UHGV virus genome: UHGV-0236300
Length of the DNA: 64,000 nucleotides
Reading direction: 5' to 3' (one strand)
Source: a virus
Shown here: piece by piece, positions 61 through 28,744 of the stretch
Layout of the letters: the number at the start of each line of letters is the position of its first letter
How positions within the stretch are numbered: position 1 is the stretch's first letter
The notes under the pieces: model-generated
Seen by the model: the letters and a program-made list of their open reading frames with translations, nothing else
What the model was told of the DNA's origin: nothing
Database searches by the model: none
Position numbers and translations under genes: made by a program

Positions 61-3000
61 TGCCAATTGCAATGATTGATAACATCGTTGCTTCTGCAAG
101 ATCTTCGAGCTATGACTGGAACGCATCCAAGGCAGCTCTGGCTGACAGCCTGAACACTGTTACCACCAGAACCCTGGATAAGATTTTCGAAGGAAACAAA
201 TCTTACAGGAGTCAGCAAGATAGACAAAAACTTCTCAGATCTTCTGCTGCACCTTGCTCTGTAGTGTATGGGAAGACACGCACATCTGGGTTGCTTGCGT
301 TTTTGGAGCAGGACAGGGACAGAACCCTTCATTGTGCTATTGTTCTTGCCAATCATCCCTTGGAAGGTATAGAAGATATACTTATCGACGGTAATCCTAT
401 TTCCTCGTATGGGGATTTGGTATCGTGGGAGTTACATAACGACAGGAAAACCTCTGATCCTTTCATGGGAACACACTGCCCTTCGTGGTCACCAGACATG
501 ATAGGTAGAGGTATCAGTTGGCTACGTGCCAGCTTTAAGTTTGACCCTAACAAGTTTCCTTTTGGGTTGCCAAACGTTACACTTGTCAAGGTTGGTAAAA
601 AATGTTATGATCCTCGTATCAGTAAAGAGGTGTATACCAATAACGCTGCCTTGGTGATTCTGGACTATCTAAGAACGTACCTTAAATGTCCTGACGAAAC
701 CATCAACTGGGAGTCCTTCAAGGAAGCTGCCAACATATGCGACGAGGCTGTAAAAAACGCGGACGGAACCAGTGAGCGCCGTTACACCATTAATGGCGAG
801 TTCGACATGGACGAAGCACCAGCAAGTATTATGGCAGAGATGCTGAAGGCTTGTGGTGCAGACCTTAGCTATGTGGCTGGCAAATATGGTCTACTGGTAG
901 GTGCATACTATGGCCCGGCAACAATGACACTGAGTGAGGACTGTGTTTGCGGTGAGGTTAAGATCTATCCTGAAGCCTCCTTCGACAAAAGATCAAACAC
1001 AATAACCGGAAGATTCACCAGTCCAACCAAAGGGTATTCTGAAACAGACTTCCCGTCGGTGTTCGTACCTGAATGGGTAGAGAAGGACGGAGAAAGAAAG
1101 ATAATTGATATAGATTATCGTTTTGTTACCAGTCCTTATCAGGCTCAGCGTGTTTCCGCAATATTCTTAAGACGTGCCAGAGCTGGCAGGATTATTGAAG
1201 TAACCTGCAATATGCGGGGTTTTAAATTTAAGCCTGGGCGTTACGTTACGATGGACCTTCCAAGTATTGGTATAGTGGGCCAAGAAATGAGGGTTCTTGA
1301 ATGGGAGTTCACCAAAAAGGGCGGTGTCAAGGTAAAACTCCGTCAAGATGCTAAAGAGTGGAATGATGCCACAGGGCAACTTCCGGATTCTGGAGATGTG
1401 GATATTCCGATATCCCCGTCCGGCGTAGCTCAACCGCAAAACTTCAGATACTCTGTTCTTCAAGCTGGGGAAGTAACTCATGGTGTTTTGGCTTGGGACA
1501 ACGTTGGAACTTATGCTCAAAATATTGTGCAGGTAAGAAAGAACGGAGAGATTATTTGGACAGCACAAACAGTCGAGCAGTTTGTCCGCGTAGAAGGATT
1601 GACCAAAGGGTCATACACAGCAACCGTGGTTGCAACATCTTATAAAGGTGGTGTATCTCCAGAAGCCTACTGCGAGTTCAACATTCAAGCACCTGAAGCT
1701 CCTGTTTCTGTAGAAGTTAAGCAGGGATACTTTGCTATCACCTTGATTCCGCACAGCAGGGACTTAGCAAGTGTAAGCACCCAGTATGATTTTTGGACAT
1801 CTGGTATGACAAGGTTGCCGGACACAAGTGATGCAACCGTTACTTCAAAAGCCACCCGTATGGGTGTTGGTTCAACTTGGACATCTGAAGGTCTGCAGAA
1901 CGATAAGATTTATTATTGGTATATTCGAACCACAAACGCTTTTGGTAGTTCTCAGTTTGTAGAATGCGCTGCACGCTGCTACACCTCTATTGAAGATTTG
2001 ATGCCTCAGATAGATGCTGAATTTAAAAAGACAGAAACTTATAAAGAGTTGATGAGCACTTTAGATTCCTCTATCGAGGAGGTTGAAAATCGTGTCACAG
2101 AGCTTAACAAGTACATGGACGGAAGGGTAGATGAGGCATTCCAACAACTTGGAGATAGGATAGGTGCGGTAGTTACAGAGACAACTCAGAAGTTTGAGGA
2201 TGTCAATGGAAATATCACAGCTCTGGATAGGAAACTTGTTGCTGCACAGAACAAGTTCACCAACGATCTGAACACTGAAAGTGGAAGACTGGCATCCCTG
2301 ATCGAGACAACCAATAAAGCAACCACTGATCTTCTGAACAAAAAGACAGAGGCTTTAGACGAGAAATTGGTTGCAGCCAAAGGGGAGTTGGTAGAACAAA
2401 TAGATGGTGTGGAGAGCGGATACCTTGCCGGAGATAAAACTCTGGATGGCAAGATCAACACCCAGAGAACGGAACTTGATGCAAGCATCCTGAGCACCAA
2501 CAAAGCGACAGTGGATCTTTTGAACAAGACCTCTGAGACCCTGGATCAAAAGATTAGTCAGACAAACGCGACGGTATCTAAAAACTATACCACCCTTGAT
2601 GGTAAGATAACTACCGCAAAAACTGATCTCAATACCTTGATTGCCAATACCAACAAGGCCACCACCGATTTGTTGAATCAGAAAACCTCTGCACTGTCAG
2701 AGCAGATAACCTCTGCACGTGGGGAGATTTCTACCAACAAACAGGCGATTAAGGATTTAGATGGTAAACTGACCTCCACAAAGACAGCTCTGGATGCTAC
2801 AATTTCCGATACCAACAAAGCAACCGTGGATCTTATTAACGGCACAGCGTCAGCTATTCGTCAAGAACTTGCTGTTGCTAAGCAGGAGATCATTGATGAT
2901 GTTGGGGATGTGTCAGAGCTCAGAGCTGCAGTGGCTACAACATCTAAGGCTGTGACCGACTTAGAGGGCAAAGTAAATGCTCAATGGGGCACAAAAATAC

Positions 3001-3899
3001 AGGTAGACTCCGCAGGGAATAAGTATGTGGCAGGTATCCAGTTAGGCATGGAAGGCTCTGGAGGCCAAGTTCAGTCATATTTCATGGTTAGCGCAAACAA
3101 CTTTGCGGTATACAACCCAGGCAATGGGACAGCAACCCTTGCTTTCGCAATCAAGAACAACCAAGCGTTCTTGAAAGACGCTTTTATAGAGAACGGCACG
3201 ATCTCTTCTGCCAAGATCGCGCAAGAAATTTCGTCAAACAACTACGATGGCAATGGGTACCACAAATACGGTTGGTATATTAACAAGAACGGGCACGCCC
3301 AGTTTATGGATGTGTGGGTGAAAGGTAACATTAACGCTAGTGCAGGTAACTTCACAGGGGCAGTTAACGCCACCAGTGGTACCTTCCGTGGGGATGTTTA
3401 TGCCAACAATGGTAGCTTTAGAGGGACCATAGATGCAACAGGAGGTACATTCCGTGGACGTGTAGAAGCTTCCGTTATCCGTGCTAACCAGTTCGAAGGT
3501 GCAATCGTTGCACACAGGACTTACGGAGATTGTGCTCCAGTATATAACTCCCAGCAAAGGGTTTGCCGTTGGAGGTGGAGATACGTAGATAACGTTTCAG
3601 GTCAGGGTAAGAACGTAACATTCTTCTTTAAACTGAATGGTACTCTTGCCAGCTCCCAGCTGAATGCATGGATAGCTGGTCATCAGATCCTTGCTGGCAA
3701 GAAGTATTTTAACGACAACAACGGCATGTGTGCGGTAGGGATAACAGGTCTGGGTGAACAAACTATAGACATTGTTATCGAGATTTACACACCGTGGTCA
3801 ACGTCTAGCGTGACAGGTGTCACAATCTCCTGTCCCACTGTGATCGTTAGTCGTTCTAACTCAAGCTTCCAGGGACCTTGGAACGAGTCTCACGACTAA
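60..3899 (+). CDS. tail tip / central fiber protein, lambda J-like host specificity protein with coiled-coil repeat insert
   Basis: RBS GGAGG upstream of ATG; segments PEAPVSVEVKQGYFAITLIPH and YYWYIRTTNAFGSSQFVE resemble lambda J FN3 region as I recall it; C-terminal GxFRG repeats; terminator follows. Confidence 0.8.
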   Translation: MPIAMIDNIVASARSSSYDWNASKAALADSLNTVTTRTLDKIFEGNKSYRSQQDRQKLLRSSAAPCSVVYGKTRTSGLLAFLEQDRDRTLHCAIVLANHPLEGIEDILIDGNPISSYGDLVSWELHNDRKTSDPFMGTHCPSWSPDMIGRGISWLRASFKFDPNKFPFGLPNVTLVKVGKKCYDPRISKEVYTNNAALVILDYLRTYLKCPDETINWESFKEAANICDEAVKNADGTSERRYTINGEFDMDEAPASIMAEMLKACGADLSYVAGKYGLLVGAYYGPATMTLSEDCVCGEVKIYPEASFDKRSNTITGRFTSPTKGYSETDFPSVFVPEWVEKDGERKIIDIDYRFVTSPYQAQRVSAIFLRRARAGRIIEVTCNMRGFKFKPGRYVTMDLPSIGIVGQEMRVLEWEFTKKGGVKVKLRQDAKEWNDATGQLPDSGDVDIPISPSGVAQPQNFRYSVLQAGEVTHGVLAWDNVGTYAQNIVQVRKNGEIIWTAQTVEQFVRVEGLTKGSYTATVVATSYKGGVSPEAYCEFNIQAPEAPVSVEVKQGYFAITLIPHSRDLASVSTQYDFWTSGMTRLPDTSDATVTSKATRMGVGSTWTSEGLQNDKIYYWYIRTTNAFGSSQFVECAARCYTSIEDLMPQIDAEFKKTETYKELMSTLDSSIEEVENRVTELNKYMDGRVDEAFQQLGDRIGAVVTETTQKFEDVNGNITALDRKLVAAQNKFTNDLNTESGRLASLIETTNKATTDLLNKKTEALDEKLVAAKGELVEQIDGVESGYLAGDKTLDGKINTQRTELDASILSTNKATVDLLNKTSETLDQKISQTNATVSKNYTTLDGKITTAKTDLNTLIANTNKATTDLLNQKTSALSEQITSARGEISTNKQAIKDLDGKLTSTKTALDATISDTNKATVDLINGTASAIRQELAVAKQEIIDDVGDVSELRAAVATTSKAVTDLEGKVNAQWGTKIQVDSAGNKYVAGIQLGMEGSGGQVQSYFMVSANNFAVYNPGNGTATLAFAIKNNQAFLKDAFIENGTISSAKIAQEISSNNYDGNGYHKYGWYINKNGHAQFMDVWVKGNINASAGNFTGAVNATSGTFRGDVYANNGSFRGTIDATGGTFRGRVEASVIRANQFEGAIVAHRTYGDCAPVYNSQQRVCRWRWRYVDNVSGQGKNVTFFFKLNGTLASSQLNAWIAGHQILAGKKYFNDNNGMCAVGITGLGEQTIDIVIEIYTPWSTSSVTGVTISCPTVIVSRSNSSFQGPWNESHD
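2310..2880 (+). repeat. four in-frame tandem repeats (about 155-185 nt) encoding TNKATxDLLNxKT coiled-coil units
   Basis: ACCAA(T/C)AAAGC units at about 2310, 2496, 2649 and 2811. Confidence 0.7.
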
Positions 3900-19104: not shown

Positions 19105-19139
19105 TAAAAAAGGGGGGCCAAATGGCCCCTTTCTTTTTA
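19105..19139. terminator. bidirectional rho-independent terminator between convergent gene blocks
   Basis: A-run, GGGGCC-AAAT-GGCCCC hairpin, T-run; sits between + gene ending 19093 and - gene ending 19143. Confidence 0.8.
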
Positions 19140-19917: not shown

Positions 19918-20298
19918 TTATGACGATTTGACGTAGCGCTCTGACAAAGCTGGGAAGCCAAAAGCAGCACCTACACTACCGTACGCTATCCACCATTGAA
20001 GTTCATCGTGACACCATTTTCCGATCAGAAAGGTGCTGGGGTAGCGAGTCAGTATTTTGGCATAAGCTTTAGGGTCTGCATCCTCTGGGATAATGATGCT
20101 TGGAACATCTTTGTTATGACCACAGCAGCAGTTTAGAGTTTTCAATCCTGCCGCCCATAGACTCATGATAGGTTTAGCCATGCACTTATCAAGGCACACA
20201 CGTTTTTTGCCGTCACGGAGCTTTTTAGGCACATCAACGATAACATTTGGATGCTTGGCACCTTTCACTTTCCAATTATAAGATTTACACTTGCACAT
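19918..20298 (-). CDS. hypothetical Cys-rich protein
   Basis: 126-aa ORF, multiple Cys/His (CKCK, CLDKC, CCCGH). Confidence 0.5.
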   Translation of the reverse strand: MCKCKSYNWKVKGAKHPNVIVDVPKKLRDGKKRVCLDKCMAKPIMSLWAAGLKTLNCCCGHNKDVPSIIIPEDADPKAYAKILTRYPSTFLIGKWCHDELQWWIAYGSVGAAFGFPALSERYVKSS

Positions 20299-21872: not shown

Positions 21873-22118
21873 TTATAGCTCCACTAGCAAAGTGCTCTCA
21901 AAATGCCTCTCATGCAGACCACTATAAGGAACCACTTCCACAACACCGTCGCGGATGTATGGAGTCATCATGGTGACATAATCACCGAACGGGTTGGCAT
22001 TATCACTAACCACGACCACATGCTGCCCCTCCTTGGCAGAGTGCCAGATAGATCTGCACTTCATCATGTGTTCGAGAGCGCCAGGTAAAATCTTGTTACG
22101 TTCTTTACGGGTCTTCAT
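21873..22118 (-). CDS. hypothetical protein
   Basis: Packed minus-strand ORF. Confidence 0.5.
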   Translation of the reverse strand: MKTRKERNKILPGALEHMMKCRSIWHSAKEGQHVVVVSDNANPFGDYVTMMTPYIRDGVVEVVPYSGLHERHFESTLLVEL

Positions 22119-22580: not shown

Positions 22581-22814
22581 TTAATCTTCGTAAATAATGA
22601 TTTCTGCTTTAGGTTTTCGTGCTTTCAGGTCCAGCTCTATCCAGTGCACCATCGCTGTTTCAAGAAAAACAGCCTGGATGCATCCGTCTTCAGCGTGCCC
22701 TACCAGCATAACAAGATCTTCACATTCATCATCTGCATCACGGACATACAAGATCTCTCCAGATTCAAAGTCTTTCACAACCTGATTGCTGGATAATTTA
22801 CGAATTTTTGCCAT
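22581..22814 (-). CDS. small protein, member 4 of tandem paralog family
   Basis: 77 aa; shares MAK...GxxxxV...FxxxxxxL pattern with the three 87-aa genes upstream. Confidence 0.5.
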   Translation of the reverse strand: MAKIRKLSSNQVVKDFESGEILYVRDADDECEDLVMLVGHAEDGCIQAVFLETAMVHWIELDLKARKPKAEIIIYED

Positions 22815-22815
22815 A

Positions 22816-23079
22816 TCAGAAACCCTCTAAAAAGCTCTTGTAGAAAATAATCTCAGTATCCACACCAGTCACGATCTTGTCGTTCCTGATTTCATCTGTA
22901 AGATAGGTGTCAAAACGCAGCACCTGTGTGGTATTGTCACACATCCACTCGGCTGTTACCATGGCAAAAATCTTAGCATCTTCATTATCTGGTGTAAATG
23001 TTACCACCTCACCGCATTTAAACTTTTCGATAGGTTGCGTGTTAGCTTTTGGTTCTGCAATGGTGATTTTCGTGGTCAT
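22816..23079 (-). CDS. small protein, member 3 of tandem paralog family
   Basis: 87 aa; abuts neighbours with 1-nt overlaps. Confidence 0.55.
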   Translation of the reverse strand: MTTKITIAEPKANTQPIEKFKCGEVVTFTPDNEDAKIFAMVTAEWMCDNTTQVLRFDTYLTDEIRNDKIVTGVDTEIIFYKSFLEGF

Positions 23080-23342
23080 TATTCTCCTCCTTCTTTTGAA
23101 TAGCTTGTCTCTCCAAGGATGGTAATTTTGGTGTCAAGCTCTGTAACTTTCATGTTTGGTGGCAGATCGTACAACTCATTATTTTCTAAATCGAACCCCC
23201 ATACACAATGTTCCCCTGTTTTGACAATCATAACTATGTTTTGAATGCCGTCTCCGTCACAACTTACCACGGTCCCACATGGAAAACTGTCTGCACGCTT
23301 TTTGTTCTTCACTTTAGAATTGAATACAATGCTAGTAGCCAT
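23079..23342 (-). CDS. small protein, member 2 of tandem paralog family
   Basis: 87 aa; MATSIVF...GTVV...FDL motif shared. Confidence 0.55.
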   Translation of the reverse strand: MATSIVFNSKVKNKKRADSFPCGTVVSCDGDGIQNIVMIVKTGEHCVWGFDLENNELYDLPPNMKVTELDTKITILGETSYSKEGGE

Positions 23343-23605
23343 TATTGTTCCTCCACCATAACTTCGCCAAGAATTTCTATGCAGGCATCCATTTCTGTAA
23401 CAACCAAGGTGTGAGGTAGTTCTGCAAACACCTTTCTGAACAGGTCAAATACCCCAACATATATGTTTGCAGGATGTGATCTCACAACAAGTGCTGTATT
23501 CACATCTCCAAGTTCATCAACAAACATCACCACAGTACCTGGAGCTACTGAAGACAGATACTTCTTAGTTTTACGGTTGGATGCAAATTTTAACTCTGTT
23601 GCCAT
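23342..23605 (-). CDS. small protein, member 1 of tandem paralog family
   Basis: 87 aa; MATELKF...GTVV...FDLF motif shared. Confidence 0.55.
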   Translation of the reverse strand: MATELKFASNRKTKKYLSSVAPGTVVMFVDELGDVNTALVVRSHPANIYVGVFDLFRKVFAELPHTLVVTEMDACIEILGEVMVEEQ

Positions 23606-23620
23606 AAATAATCTCCTCCT

Positions 23621-25102
23621 TTATTTAACGTACTCGATTAATTCCACAGTTTTCCCAAAGCTCGGGATATAATTTTTATTATACCCTTCAGTGAGAACCC
23701 ATAAAGTATCGTACTTTTTCCACTTGTTGTCAACAGCCTTTTGTTCAAAGTTATGCTCAAAGTAGAGATCGGTAAGGACGATGACATCTTTTGCATTCGG
23801 TATGTTAGCATCCAGATACTCGAACACGCAGGCGGCTGTTGTGCCCCATGTTGAGTGGACCTCATAGTTGATCATCTCATCGATGTTACCGCGAGTGTAT
23901 ACTTTAACCTCTCCAACCTCGGTTGACCAACAGAACATCGTAACCTTAAACTCTTTATACAAATTGCACAACCCGGTGATCTCATTGAACATTTTCTTTA
24001 AAGTTCTTTGTGAGATCGATCCAGAAACGTCTAAAGCCACTACAATATCTATAGTGTTTTCCGGATTACGACCAGGAACAATAACGTGTTGATTCTTGTT
24101 TATAGCTCCAACTTTTCGCATTGTGGTGGTCAAAGACCCAGATCGGCGACCAGGTTTTCTGTAGGTTAACTCAGCCTTTCTTTTAGATAACATACGTTGC
24201 TTAATAATATCTATATAATTGATTACAGGCTTGCCTCTGTTTTTGACAAACTCGCGCACCGCCTCGGGGCAACGACCTCCTGAAGCTTGCATTGCTGCTT
24301 CCAACATGTCACCAGAGTCCTGCATGGCCTGATCTTTATCAGATTGACTGATTACTGGTTGCGGCTGATCATACCCCATAGCCTTTCCAAGATCATCACT
24401 GGTGCCACCGTTCCCACTCATGTGATCATCGGTTTGTCGTTTATCTCCTTGGGAGTTCTCACCTTTACCGTTCTTACTTTTACCGCTATTCTGATCTCTT
24501 TGTTTATCAAGAACTGCATAGACGTTCTCAGCAATCCATCCATGAAACTCCATGTCGCAGTAGCAACTGGCTAAGAAGCCAAAAGGCTTACCTTTTACGA
24601 ACTCAGTGCTTTTCCCCTTCGGGAAGAAAACACAAGGAGGCTTGCTAAAGTCAACCACAAGACCTGTGTTGATAACGTGATCACAAGCAATATTGAACAG
24701 TTCCGGCTCAAAGCTTTTACCACGGACCAGATGATCACAGATAATATGCCCCACCTCATGTGACAGAAGAAAGGCCACCTCTTTCACAGATTTTGGGGAA
24801 TAGAAAACTTCAGCCATCTCAAACTGCTTGTCAGTCAGAGATGCTTTAAGAATGGTTTTACGCTCATCTGCCAACCCCATAATGAACTCAGGACTGTAGT
24901 AGATGCGTTTATGGTCTGTTGCCATAGTGGAGCACCATGTGTGGTTTTCTACGAACTGCAACCCTGACAACAGTGTGCCATAAAACGGCAGCTTTTCAAG
25001 AAGGTACATGCGAGCGGCCTGCAGCATTCGCAAGGCATCATCTTTTTGTGCGGTAATGATTTCTGAACTTCTGCTATCCATTAAAACTCCAGAAGGGGCC
25101 AT
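23621..25102 (-). CDS. VWA-domain protein with N-terminal HExxH metallopeptidase-like domain
   Basis: HEVGH zinc-binding motif; VWA MIDAS-like DVSGSIS; alternative start at 25081 if hairpin 25095-25109 is terminator of upstream gene. Confidence 0.75.
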   Translation of the reverse strand: MAPSGVLMDSRSSEIITAQKDDALRMLQAARMYLLEKLPFYGTLLSGLQFVENHTWCSTMATDHKRIYYSPEFIMGLADERKTILKASLTDKQFEMAEVFYSPKSVKEVAFLLSHEVGHIICDHLVRGKSFEPELFNIACDHVINTGLVVDFSKPPCVFFPKGKSTEFVKGKPFGFLASCYCDMEFHGWIAENVYAVLDKQRDQNSGKSKNGKGENSQGDKRQTDDHMSGNGGTSDDLGKAMGYDQPQPVISQSDKDQAMQDSGDMLEAAMQASGGRCPEAVREFVKNRGKPVINYIDIIKQRMLSKRKAELTYRKPGRRSGSLTTTMRKVGAINKNQHVIVPGRNPENTIDIVVALDVSGSISQRTLKKMFNEITGLCNLYKEFKVTMFCWSTEVGEVKVYTRGNIDEMINYEVHSTWGTTAACVFEYLDANIPNAKDVIVLTDLYFEHNFEQKAVDNKWKKYDTLWVLTEGYNKNYIPSFGKTVELIEYVK

Positions 25103-25114: not shown

Positions 25115-26164
25115 TTATTTAACGTGCTTGAAAATACCAGCCAACTCGGTCATTGTCATGCGAGTGGTCTTCATAAGGTCTGTCATAGCCTTCTCCATGA
25201 TTGGAGATACTACCATGAAGTTACCTTTGGTGAAACCTTTGTTCCAGTCGGTAACTAATAGGGGTTTAAGTCCGGCACCGAGACGTTCACCAGTTAAAGC
25301 ACAACATTTTCGAATGTATGTGCTCTTAAACTGGCTGAATGACAGATCAACTTTCATACCTGCATCGTAGAACGTCTGGCAATAGAAAGTGTAAGCTTTG
25401 GCAATCTCAACATCGTCAGGCAGTGCAGGAACCTCTTCTGTAAGCTCTTCTTCGACCCCTTGAGGCTCTTTTTCCTCTTCGTAAGCCTGTTGCGTCATCT
25501 CTTCAATCTCCTCTACTACAGGCTCGTTTACAATGTCAGAAATGTGCTTGTTGGCTCCACGATTAGCCATGAAGTTTTTAAAATCCTGCATTGGTGACAT
25601 ATCTTCCTCCCATTCTTCGTCAAAGAGTGCTAGTTTATCCTCTTCCGTTCCATATTGCAAGATGAAATCTTCAAAAGTGTAATCACCTTTCAATTTCTCC
25701 ATACGCTCTTCGCTCAGGTGGAGCATCATCTGCTGGACAATTTTTCGATCAGTTTTGTCTTTAATCAAGACTGCGGTCTTTTTATCTACCAGACAGTCCT
25801 TTAGAGAGTTGCATCTCAATCCTACCACACAACAGTTATCAACCGCATAAGGACCTTCATCATCTATCCGCTCTAGAGATGGGTAGAAAGGATTTCCCAG
25901 TCCGTTTTCATCTGTGTGCATGTCGAAAGGTATAAGGGTATAGTCGCATACTCCCTCTCCTAAAAGTTTTTTACCAAATAGGAGATATTCTTCCCATGAC
26001 AGGTTGAACTCTATATCCCGTTTCCGTGCGTTATTCTGTTTGCGTCTGTATTTTTTGAGCAAGCGCTCTAACTCTTCTGGTGTATAATATTTTTCAAGAT
26101 TCATGAGTTGTCTCTTGTTCTCTGTGGGTGGAGAAATCTTACCAAGTGCCTGAGAAGATGTCAA
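25115..26164 (-). CDS. hypothetical acidic protein, possible degenerate HNH/Zn-finger-like N-terminus
   Basis: 349-aa ORF; N-terminal ERIDDEGPY...NCCVVGLRCNSLK loosely HNH-like; Glu-rich C-terminal half. Confidence 0.55.
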   Translation of the reverse strand: MTSSQALGKISPPTENKRQLMNLEKYYTPEELERLLKKYRRKQNNARKRDIEFNLSWEEYLLFGKKLLGEGVCDYTLIPFDMHTDENGLGNPFYPSLERIDDEGPYAVDNCCVVGLRCNSLKDCLVDKKTAVLIKDKTDRKIVQQMMLHLSEERMEKLKGDYTFEDFILQYGTEEDKLALFDEEWEEDMSPMQDFKNFMANRGANKHISDIVNEPVVEEIEEMTQQAYEEEKEPQGVEEELTEEVPALPDDVEIAKAYTFYCQTFYDAGMKVDLSFSQFKSTYIRKCCALTGERLGAGLKPLLVTDWNKGFTKGNFMVVSPIMEKAMTDLMKTTRMTMTELAGIFKHVK

Positions 26165-28474: not shown

Positions 28475-28744
28475 ATGTTATACCAGCAGTACGAACTTCG
28501 TGCAGAAAAAGAATTAAATTTTGACAAAGATATCCACAGATATTATTATGGGAAAGTTAGAGGGCAAGCAAGAAAGTGTACTCCAACACTCTTTTATGCC
28601 AGCAGACGACTAGCGCCAGAAGAGGCAACAGCAGAAAGGGTTGCATATGGCTGGAGAGTTGCGTATGATATTGACAGATCCGATGTGATGTCTGTTTTGG
28701 AAAACTTTGAAAACACTTACACACAAGTAGAGGACTTTTACTAA
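28475..28744 (+). CDS. hypothetical protein
   Basis: RBS AAGGAG; stop overlaps next start. Confidence 0.5.
   Translation: MLYQQYELRAEKELNFDKDIHRYYYGKVRGQARKCTPTLFYASRRLAPEEATAERVAYGWRVAYDIDRSDVMSVLENFENTYTQVEDFY

What the first reader, a model, noticed from the sequence alone, without database searches (positions are those of the whole stretch)
22581..23605. Tandem array of four small paralogous genes
Four consecutive minus-strand genes (87, 87, 87 and 77 aa) share a recognisable scaffold (MAT..KF.S..K.KK...GTVV...V.FDL...LP...E.D..I.ILGE) but are otherwise diverged, and abut with 1-nt overlaps. Such arrays are typical of fast-evolving host-interaction or anti-defence factors, and the array sits in the accessory minus-strand arm.
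Basis: seen in the sequence. Interest (0 to 1): 0.5.

Follow-up and report, generated by a model that had tools for sequence, protein, structure and literature searches.

The report
Four-gene array of small phage paralogues
Four adjacent small early genes of an rV5-like E. coli phage are ancient, much-diverged copies of one gene for a tiny acidic beta-barrel protein. The first two form a swappable cassette and the last two are tightly conserved, so this is an ordinary but previously unlinked orphan phage family whose function is unknown.

Summary
The window is a Vequintavirus, 99.9% identical to phage vB_EcoM-ECP26. The four minus-strand ORFs exist exactly as described: A 23342-23605, B 23079-23342, C 22816-23079 and D 22581-22814.

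**Paralogy.** A and B are clear paralogues (38% identity, E 4e-12). C and D show no pairwise BLAST similarity to anything. Profile searches still pick them out as the only other family members among 721 ORFs of the window (E about 2e-4 each; hhalign E 2e-6 and 3e-5).

**Fold.** Independent AlphaFold models of A and D both give SH3/Tudor-like small beta-barrels.

**Distribution.** The family is confined to rV5-like phages and has no Pfam, NCBIfam, PDB-sequence or E. coli-genome match.

**Evolution.** The genes are not fast-evolving. dN/dS is 0.00-0.23, and C has no amino-acid change against rV5 although 47% of synonymous sites differ.

**Cassette.** A+B form a gene-precise exchangeable cassette. 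44 phages carry A+B and 74 carry a single third variant, E (rV5 gp014). A sibling phage mostly 99-100% identical in the flanks carries E.

**Function.** They are most likely non-virion early proteins that bind host proteins. An anti-defence role is untested.

The parts
23342..23605 (-). Gene A (87 aa), first member of the exchangeable A+B cassette; PHROG 10698
   Evidence: ORF. PHROG 10698 E 1.4e-41. AlphaFold model has pLDDT 81 and is an all-beta SH3/Tudor-like barrel. dN/dS is 0.12 against Murica. Present in 44 of 118 Vequintavirus records.
23079..23342 (-). Gene B (87 aa), second member of the cassette, paralogue of A; PHROG 10698
   Evidence: BLASTP against A gives 38% identity, E 4e-12. 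PHROG 10698 E 4.8e-41. Present in the same 44 records. Identical in protein to the Murica copy, dN/dS 0.00.
22816..23079 (-). Gene C (87 aa), distant paralogue, core to the genus and extremely conserved; PHROG 12861
   Evidence: hhalign against the A/B/E profile gives probability 89%, E 2.4e-6. HMM score is 18 bits, reached by 0 of 5000 shuffles. Present in 118 of 118 records at 94% identity or more. dN/dS is 0.00-0.03.
22581..22814 (-). Gene D (77 aa), most distant paralogue, core to the genus; PHROG 12046
23082..23628 (-). Exchangeable slot: [A+B] here, replaced by the single 85-aa gene E (rV5 gp014) in 74 other phages
   Evidence: Alignments to rV5 and to the near-identical sibling ECP32 lose identity exactly between the end of gp012 and its RBS and the TAATG at the start of C. 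A 17-nt identical island spans the start codon.
23613..23620 (-). Shine-Dalgarno sequence (AGGAGGAG) of gene A. Equivalent sites precede B, C and D inside the 3' ends of the preceding genes.
   Evidence: Read directly. The repeat D1 is this Shine-Dalgarno motif upstream of A and of C.
23621..25102 (-). Upstream neighbour, rV5 gp012 homologue: DUF2201 metallopeptidase-like plus VWA-like protein (context, same operon)
   Evidence: Pfam DUF2201_N E 2.2e-28 and DUF2201 E 3.6e-11. In sister genera this gene is followed directly by the gp017 homologue, without the array.
25115..26104 (-). First gene of the operon, rV5 gp011 homologue: Srd-like putative anti-sigma factor (context)
   Evidence: PHROG 1400 Srd and PHROG 4592 hits. 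Annotated start taken from ECP26. Srd homology is stated in PMC3606486.
26136..26164 (-). Sigma70-like promoter (TTGACA-17-TAAGAT with extended -10 TG) at the head of the minus-strand arm
   Evidence: Consensus scan. [quoted passage not shown] Function is not shown.
19111..19132 (.). Bidirectional intrinsic terminator that ends the arm
   Evidence: both strands. Matches the rV5 and Murica annotations and PMC3606486. No terminator-like site lies inside the array on the minus strand.

Best explanation
The four ORFs are real genes that are co-transcribed and translationally coupled, and presumably expressed early. They encode one orphan family of 77-87-aa acidic proteins (pI 4.4-5.7). Each has a short basic N-terminal beta-hairpin followed by an SH3/Tudor-like small beta-barrel.

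**Origin (inferred).** The array arose by old tandem duplications within the rV5-like lineage. It was inserted between the DUF2201 gene (gp012) and gp017.

**Two parts (shown).**
- C and D are fixed, single-copy and under very strong purifying selection.
- The first position is an exchangeable slot. It holds either A+B or one gene of a third subtype, E. Homologous recombination in the flanks moves these cassettes between otherwise near-identical phages.

**Mechanism (inferred, not shown).** The proteins are non-enzymatic, non-virion binders made from the first transcripts of infection, together with the Srd-like anti-sigma factor. Each uses its acidic barrel to bind a host protein, or possibly a phage protein.
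- C and D probably address invariant targets.
- The slot alleles probably offer alternative specificities.
- A target in the transcription or translation machinery is a reasonable guess. Bacterial Tudor/KOW-like barrels bind the RNA polymerase beta lobe or ribosomal proteins, and the neighbouring gene is RNA-polymerase-directed. This remains only a guess.
For: **Genes are real.** Each has an RBS, a conserved TAATG junction and dN/dS of 0.00-0.23.

**One family.** A-B E 4e-12. Profile links to C and D.

**Composition.** Acidic barrel and basic N-terminus in all eight variants.

**Restricted to the lineage.**
- An exhaustive HMM search of 1.84 billion representatives finds only three real clusters.
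- Sister genera lack the array.
- There is no match in 5,426 E. coli genomes.

**Slot exchange.**
- 44 records carry A+B and 74 carry E.
- Boundaries are gene-precise.
- ECP32 is 96-100% identical in the flanks, mostly 99-100%, but carries E. Murica flanks are 84-98% identical while its A/B is 96-98% identical.
- A solitary E-like copy sits in another context.

**Early operon.** Promoter and terminator layout and the rV5 transcription unit of genes 11-26.

**Not virion.** No peptides of rV5 gp014-016 appear in the virion MS table.

Against: - No experiment or homology points to any target or activity.
- D's link to the family is transitive. The direct A/B/E profile against D gives only 4.9 bits (40 of 5000 shuffles reach it) and hhalign probability 1.2%.
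- Early expression is inferred from promoter consensus and gene layout, not from RNA data.
- Translational coupling would fit subunits of one complex as well as independent binders.
- Tandem duplication in place cannot be separated from stepwise insertion of related cassettes.
Confidence: 0.5

Rival explanations
1. Counter-defence array. Each paralogue inhibits a different bacterial immune system. The A+B and E alleles are alternative anti-defence specificities that are exchanged between phages as host immunity varies.
For: - The A/B slot behaves like an 'accessory region': variable content between conserved flanks, exchanged horizontally (concept in bioRxiv 10.1101/2023.04.06.535777).
- The proteins are small, acidic, early and orphan.
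Against: - Only two allelic states occur in 118 phages, each 95% or more conserved and under purifying selection. This is not the open-ended diversity typical of anti-defence hotspots.
- C and D are invariant core genes.
- Both alleles occur in phages isolated on defence-poor K-12 and on the same STEC strain.
- BASEL Vequintavirinae are reported as exceptionally sensitive to restriction-modification systems, with only minor differences from phage to phage (PMC8594841).
- There is no match in the supplements of the accessory-gene screen.
Confidence: 0.2
2. The paralogues are subunits of one hetero-oligomeric assembly, made in fixed stoichiometry by translational coupling. For example, a ring or stack of SH3/Sm-like barrels in which A+B or E fills one position. 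It might work with the neighbouring DUF2201/VWA protein and the MoxR ATPase.
For: - The TAATG stop/start overlaps are conserved whatever the cassette type.
- C and D always co-occur.
- SH3/Sm-like barrels often oligomerise (general knowledge), and Hfq appears among D's fold hits.
Against: - No multimer prediction could be run.
- An E-like copy exists alone in another genomic context, without C or D.
- One gene (E) substitutes for two (A+B), which is awkward for a fixed-stoichiometry complex.
- Stop/start overlaps are common in phage operons generally.
Confidence: 0.12
3. Only A and B (with E) are paralogues. C and D are unrelated small genes that share size, position and a very common small-barrel fold by chance or convergence.
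For: - There is no BLASTP alignment for any pair involving C or D.
- PHROGs places them in three separate families.
- The direct A/B/E profile against D is weak.
- The fold is generic.
Against: - The profile hits are end-to-end and in register, with E about 1e-4 to 1e-6.
- 0 of 5000 shuffles reach the observed scores.
- C and D are the top-ranked non-self ORFs of 721 in the window, and they are the immediate neighbours.
- 16 control small proteins score 3 bits or less.
- Strand order is colinear in independent models.
Confidence: 0.1
4. They are minor virion or assembly proteins.
For: Some database annotations call the neighbouring gp017 homologue a 'tail protein'.
Against: - The genes lie in the sigma70-promoter arm with the Srd-like gene, far from the morphogenesis genes.
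- No peptides of rV5 gp014-016 are in the virion MS data.
- The identified virion proteins are gp52, 53, 60, 61, 64 and 133, plus tail and tail-fibre proteins.
Confidence: 0.03

Closest known systems
PHROG families 10698 (A, B, E), 12861 (C) and 12046 (D), all 'unknown function'
   Same: The four proteins match these profiles end to end (E 1e-41 to 1e-62). All orthologues in GenBank are annotated as hypothetical proteins.
   Different: PHROGs keeps them as three unrelated families. Here they are linked into one superfamily by profile-profile comparison and by fold.
SH3-like / Tudor / KOW small beta-barrel domains, for example the SMN and TDRD3 Tudor domains, Spt5 KOW, the ribosomal L2 SH3-like domain, and the UvrD/PcrA C-terminal Tudor-like domain that binds the RNA polymerase beta lobe
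   Different: - There is no sequence similarity: Pfam and PDB profile searches are negative.
- The phage proteins are stand-alone, acidic, and carry an extra basic N-terminal hairpin.
- An aromatic cage or an RNA-polymerase-binding surface was not examined.
Phage accessory regions and accessory genes (Silas et al., bioRxiv 10.1101/2023.04.06.535777)
   Same: The A+B/E slot has variable content between conserved flanking genes in closely related genomes and is moved by recombination.
   Different: - There are only two alleles, both conserved.
- C and D are core genes.
- No phenotype is known, and the family is not among the tested accessory genes.
Recent tandem amplification of anti-defence genes (T4 tifA, eLife 2022, PMC9391042; SegB-driven amplification, PMC13096335)
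   Same: Tandem same-strand copies of a small phage gene.
   Different: As I understand those cases from their abstracts, they are recent segmental amplifications selected under defence pressure. Here the copies are 12-40% identical, are fixed across a genus, and are each under purifying selection.
Small uncharacterised phage proteins of 70-90 aa with the same predicted fold in BFVD (for example Serratia phage Hera, Vibrio phage Thalassa, Klebsiella phage Seu621)
   Same: Foldseek E 7e-4 to 2e-2 and TM 0.55-0.7 over nearly the full length.
   Different: Sequence identity is 10-24% and there is no detectable sequence homology. None has a known function. I did not examine whether they also sit in arrays.

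Membership tests
One paralogous family comprising A, B, C and D | Statistically significant sequence similarity between members | tested here: met
   A-B BLASTP E 4e-12. A/B/E profile against C: hhalign E 2.4e-6. A/B/E/C profile against D: hhalign E 3.3e-5. HMM scores of 17-18 bits are reached by 0 of 5000 shuffles. These are the only hits among 721 window ORFs. Caveat: five of the six direct pairwise BLASTP comparisons are negative.
One paralogous family comprising A, B, C and D | Same three-dimensional fold | tested here: met
PHROG 10698 / 12861 / 12046 | Full-length match to the family profile | tested here: met
   E 1.4e-41 (A), 4.8e-41 (B), 8.5e-62 (C) and 1.6e-53 (D), each covering the whole profile.
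Tudor / SH3-like small beta-barrel superfold | Five-stranded, strongly bent antiparallel barrel | tested here: met
Tudor domain family proper (methyl-lysine/arginine readers) or bacterial RNA-polymerase-binding Tudor-like domains | Sequence membership (Pfam), and an aromatic cage or RNA-polymerase-binding surface | tested here: not met
   No Pfam, NCBIfam or PDB-sequence hit. I therefore do not file these proteins as Tudor-family members.
Sm/Hfq-like proteins | N-terminal alpha-helix followed by the Sm1/Sm2 barrel; ring oligomer | tested here: inconclusive
Phage accessory-region genes | Variable gene content between conserved flanks among close relatives, with horizontal exchange | tested here: met
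   This holds for the A+B/E slot only: 44 against 74 phages, gene-precise boundaries, and a cassette type decoupled from the backbone. It does not hold for C and D, which are present in 118 of 118 records.
Fast-evolving arms-race genes | Elevated dN/dS or diversifying divergence relative to neighbours | tested here: not met
   dN/dS is 0.00-0.23 for all four, and C and D are the most conserved genes of the arm.
Anti-defence proteins | Homology to a known inhibitor, or demonstrated inhibition of a defence system | not testable with these tools
   There is no homology to any Pfam, NCBIfam or PDB entry. No dedicated anti-defence library is available here. The papers searched hold no phenotype data.
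Recent gene amplification ('accordion') | Near-identical tandem copies with DNA-level repeats | tested here: not met
   The copies are 12-40% identical. The only DNA repeats are the Shine-Dalgarno motifs.

The most novel reading that the evidence does not exclude
The array is a modular specificity system. C and D are constant partners of a hetero-oligomeric SH3/Sm-like assembly. The exchangeable first position (A+B or E) retargets that assembly to different host factors, for example strain-variable immune proteins or alternative forms of a transcription or translation component. This would be a recombination-swappable 'specificity subunit' for an early host-takeover complex.
Probability: 0.1. 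Interest if true: 0.6.

Novelty: new member of a known kind. Interest (0 to 1): 0.3.

Why it matters
Small orphan early genes make up much of the unknown coding capacity of large lytic phages, and rV5-like phages are widely used for biocontrol and therapy.

This case offers three things:
- Three 'unrelated' orphan families collapse into one ancient family with a defined fold.
- The strength of constraint on C and D argues that they do something important for every member of the genus.
- Nature has supplied a near-isogenic pair, ECP26 with A+B and ECP32 with E. That pair makes the role of the exchangeable slot directly testable.

The finding does not in itself reveal a new mechanism.

Tried and rejected
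1. **E as an A-N-terminus/B-C-terminus chimera made by unequal crossover.** Rejected. E is equidistant from A and B in both halves (17/43 against 15/41, and 16/42 against 18/42).
2. **Direct repeats flanking A+B as recombination sites.** The 18-nt repeat is only the Shine-Dalgarno motif and is not conserved in rV5.
3. **Relatives in sister genera at the same slot.** Mydovirus Seu621 and Seunavirus SSE121 have none. gp012 is followed directly by the gp017 homologue, and 15 nearby proteins (52-208 aa) there score about 1 bit or less against the A/B/E and A/B/E/C profiles.
4. **Further paralogues elsewhere in the window.** None. gp018 and gp020 are unrelated.
5. **Wider homologues.**
   - The word-index protein searches returned only close relatives.
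   - The exhaustive HMM search found three real clusters plus three spurious long repetitive proteins.
   - IMG/VR held two loci, both E-type.
   - E. coli complete genomes gave no match.
6. **Family and structure libraries.** Pfam, NCBIfam, PADLOC, PDB sequences and Rfam gave nothing significant.
7. **Literature.**
   - The rV5 genome paper does not discuss these genes, and its virion MS table has no peptides from them.
   - CRISPRi-ART tested only the major capsid protein and rII in the rV5-like phage EdH4.
   - The accessory-gene screen has no matching sequence.
   - The BASEL paper reports no informative differences.
   - There is no comparative ECP26/ECP32 paper.
8. **Not done.** I did not try to correlate cassette type with BASEL plating data. 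There are too few phages, and both alleles plate on K-12.

Full report
**What the window is.** The 5.5 kb around the finding is 99.9% identical to Escherichia phage vB_EcoM-ECP26. It is 93-95% identical to more than 100 other Vequintavirus (rV5-like) genomes. The finding lies in a minus-strand arm with negative GC skew between about 20 and 26 kb. The arm runs from a sigma70-like promoter at 26164-26136 to a bidirectional terminator at 19111-19132. [quoted passage not shown] The gene order is: Srd-like putative anti-sigma factor (gp011), DUF2201 metallopeptidase/VWA-like protein (gp012), the four small genes, then gp017-gp026, all of unknown function.

**Checking the observation.** The four ORFs are exactly where stated:
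- A: 23342-23605, 87 aa
- B: 23079-23342, 87 aa
- C: 22816-23079, 87 aa
- D: 22581-22814, 77 aa

The junctions A/B and B/C are TAATG, a 1-nt overlap. C/D is TGAtATG, a 1-nt spacer. Each start is preceded by a Shine-Dalgarno sequence that is encoded in the acidic C-terminus of the gene before it. The same junctions are kept in rV5 and in a divergent relative.

**Are they paralogues?**
- *Pairwise BLASTP.* A and B align at 38% identity over 81 residues, E 4e-12. None of the other five pairs gives any BLASTP alignment. PHROGs files the proteins in three families: 10698 for A and B, 12861 for C, and 12046 for D.
- *The A/B/E profile.* I built it from A, B and a third subtype, E (rV5 gp014), using homologues found (alignment A4).
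- *hhalign.* The A/B/E profile matches C end to end with probability 89% and E 2.4e-6. D alone is not matched by that profile (E 0.043). Adding C to the profile brings D in at probability 72%, E 3.3e-5, over 68 columns.
- *HMMER with shuffling.* C scores 18.1 bits against the A/B/E profile. D scores 17.1 bits against the A/B/E/C profile. None of 5000 composition-preserving shuffles reaches either score. The neighbouring small proteins gp018 and gp020 score 4.4 bits or less.
- *All window ORFs.* Against all 721 six-frame ORFs of at least 40 aa, the iterated profile recovers exactly the four adjacent genes: C at E 1.5e-4, D at E 2e-4, and the next score is 5.7 bits. Fifteen proteins of 52-208 aa encoded near gp012 in sister genera score about 1 bit or less.

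I conclude that all four descend from one gene. Confidence is high for A, B and C, and moderate for D.

**Distribution and evolution.**
- *A very narrow family.* An exhaustive HMM search of 1.84 billion representative proteins finds only three real clusters. tblastn finds members only in the 118 Vequintavirus records of the phage collection. IMG/VR adds two loci. Complete E. coli genomes hold none.
- *Absent from sister genera.* In Mydovirus and Seunavirus, gp012 is followed directly by the gp017 homologue. The array is therefore an insertion specific to the rV5-like lineage.
- *Core genes and a dimorphic slot.* C and D are present once in every one of the 118 records, at 94% and 80% identity or more. 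The first position is dimorphic. 44 records carry A+B, and 74 carry the single 85-aa gene E, which is about 39% identical to both A and B.
- *Gene-precise boundaries.* Identity to rV5 is about 93% up to the start codon of A and again from the start of C. Between those points the DNA is unalignable.
- *A recent swap.* The sibling phage ECP32 was isolated on the same strain. It is 96-100% identical to the window, mostly 99-100%, across the whole 8-kb arm, yet carries E. Murica has A+B at 96-98% identity in flanks that are only 84-98% identical. The cassette type is therefore decoupled from the backbone and moves by recombination.
- *Older states.* A more divergent relative, seen in E. coli assembly contigs, also has a four-gene array of 88/85/87/77 aa. 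Its A and B are 56% and 70% identical to the window's by BLASTP, and its C and D are 97% and 92% identical. The A/B duplication is therefore old. A further E-like variant occurs alone in a different context on a metagenomic contig.
- *Chimera idea rejected.* E is not an A/B chimera.

**Selection.** Nei-Gojobori estimates show purifying selection everywhere:

| Gene | dN/dS | Note |
|---|---|---|
| C | 0.00-0.03 | no amino-acid change against rV5 although pS is 0.47 |
| D | 0.06-0.07 | |
| B | 0.00 | against Murica |
| A | 0.12-0.23 | |

'Fast-evolving' is therefore wrong. The variation is allelic replacement, not rapid divergence.

**What the proteins look like.** All eight variants examined are acidic, with pI 4.4-5.7. 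The first 20 residues are net basic and the barrel carries a net charge of -4 to -12. Within the A/B/E subtypes the conserved positions include K14-K15, G23-T24, V26, D54-L55, T70-E71, D73, I76 and G80-E81. There is no Pfam, NCBIfam, PADLOC or PDB-sequence match. Foldseek against viral models finds many 70-90-aa uncharacterised phage proteins with the same fold, and none has a known function.

**Function.**
- *What the evidence shows.* The genes sit in a sigma70-promoter operon next to an Srd-like gene. Their products are absent from the rV5 virion mass-spectrometry data. They are small acidic stand-alone barrels with no catalytic motifs.
- *What I infer.* They are early, non-structural proteins that act by binding other macromolecules. 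Given the acidic surface, the targets are most probably host proteins.
- *What is only a lead.* Bacterial Tudor/KOW-like barrels that bind RNA polymerase or ribosomal proteins are among the fold hits (7egs_B, 5dma_A, 5ohq_A). The neighbouring gene is RNA-polymerase-directed. The transcription or translation machinery is therefore a plausible target.
- *Anti-defence.* This is possible for the exchangeable slot but is not supported by any test. Both alleles occur in phages isolated on K-12 MG1655 and on the same STEC strain. BASEL Vequintavirinae are described as exceptionally sensitive to restriction-modification systems (PMC8594841).
- *Experimental data.* I found none for these genes.

**Verdict.** This is an uncharacterised but ordinary kind of phage feature, an orphan early-gene family. 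It comes with a useful natural experiment, the ECP26/ECP32 pair.

Noticed in passing
window 23621-25102 (-), with the MoxR ATPase gene near 28744 (+): The DUF2201 metallopeptidase-like/VWA-like protein (Pfam E 2e-28 and 4e-11) is annotated in GenBank and RefSeq variously as 'anti-sigma factor', 'HNH endonuclease' and 'metallopeptidase'. The first two look like propagated mis-annotations. It probably pairs with the MoxR-type ATPase on the divergent arm. Homologues occur in 493 phage records across many genera.
   Followed up: partly
phage collection, GenBank MG0656xx records: Sixteen records named 'Campylobacter phage' (host C. jejuni) are about 93% identical to E. coli rV5-like phages across this region and carry the same array. 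This looks like mislabelling or contamination of Campylobacter phage preparations by coliphages.
   Followed up: no
window 26104-26164 (-): The longest ORF for the Srd-like gene starts at a TTG at 26164. That start overlaps the promoter-like TTGACA-17-TAAGAT at 26164-26136. The annotated start at 26104 (ECP26) is more plausible.
   Followed up: partly
L003 (rV5, NC_011041) 2257-3718: The rV5 reference splits the gp012 homologue into gp012 (441 aa) and an overlapping gp013 (81 aa). The window and most relatives have one ORF of 486-493 aa. This is a probable frameshift or sequencing error in the reference.
   Followed up: no
L006 6258-6756 compared with window 22581-23079: In the divergent relative, C and D have dS of about 0.6, while every flanking gene is saturated or nearly so. 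The C-D segment may have been exchanged more recently than its surroundings, in addition to being strongly constrained.
   Followed up: partly
window 21873-22118 (-), gp018 homologue: This 81-aa gene is a local divergence spot: 87% nucleotide identity against rV5 and Murica, where neighbours are 96%. It hits a second PHROG (12865) at E 4e-6, so it may be another variable position in the arm. It is not related to the A-D family.
   Followed up: partly
L008 5406-5792 (Salmonella phage SSE121 gp113, gp017 homologue): The C-family HMM gives a weak hit of 7.8 bits, E 0.003 among 15 sequences. It is probably chance. The N-terminal half of gp017-like proteins might also be a small beta domain.
   Followed up: no
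OQ420740.1 (phage B9-1) 79963-80223: The orthologue of gene A is annotated there as 'excinuclease ATPase subunit'. This is an evident annotation error for an 87-aa protein.
   Followed up: no
L009 1621-2052 compared with window 19951-20298 (-): The metagenomic contig that carries the solitary E-like gene encodes, immediately downstream, a Cys-rich 143-aa protein. It is 54% identical to a window protein from the same arm. That phage is therefore a distant rV5 relative with a rearranged early region.
   Followed up: no
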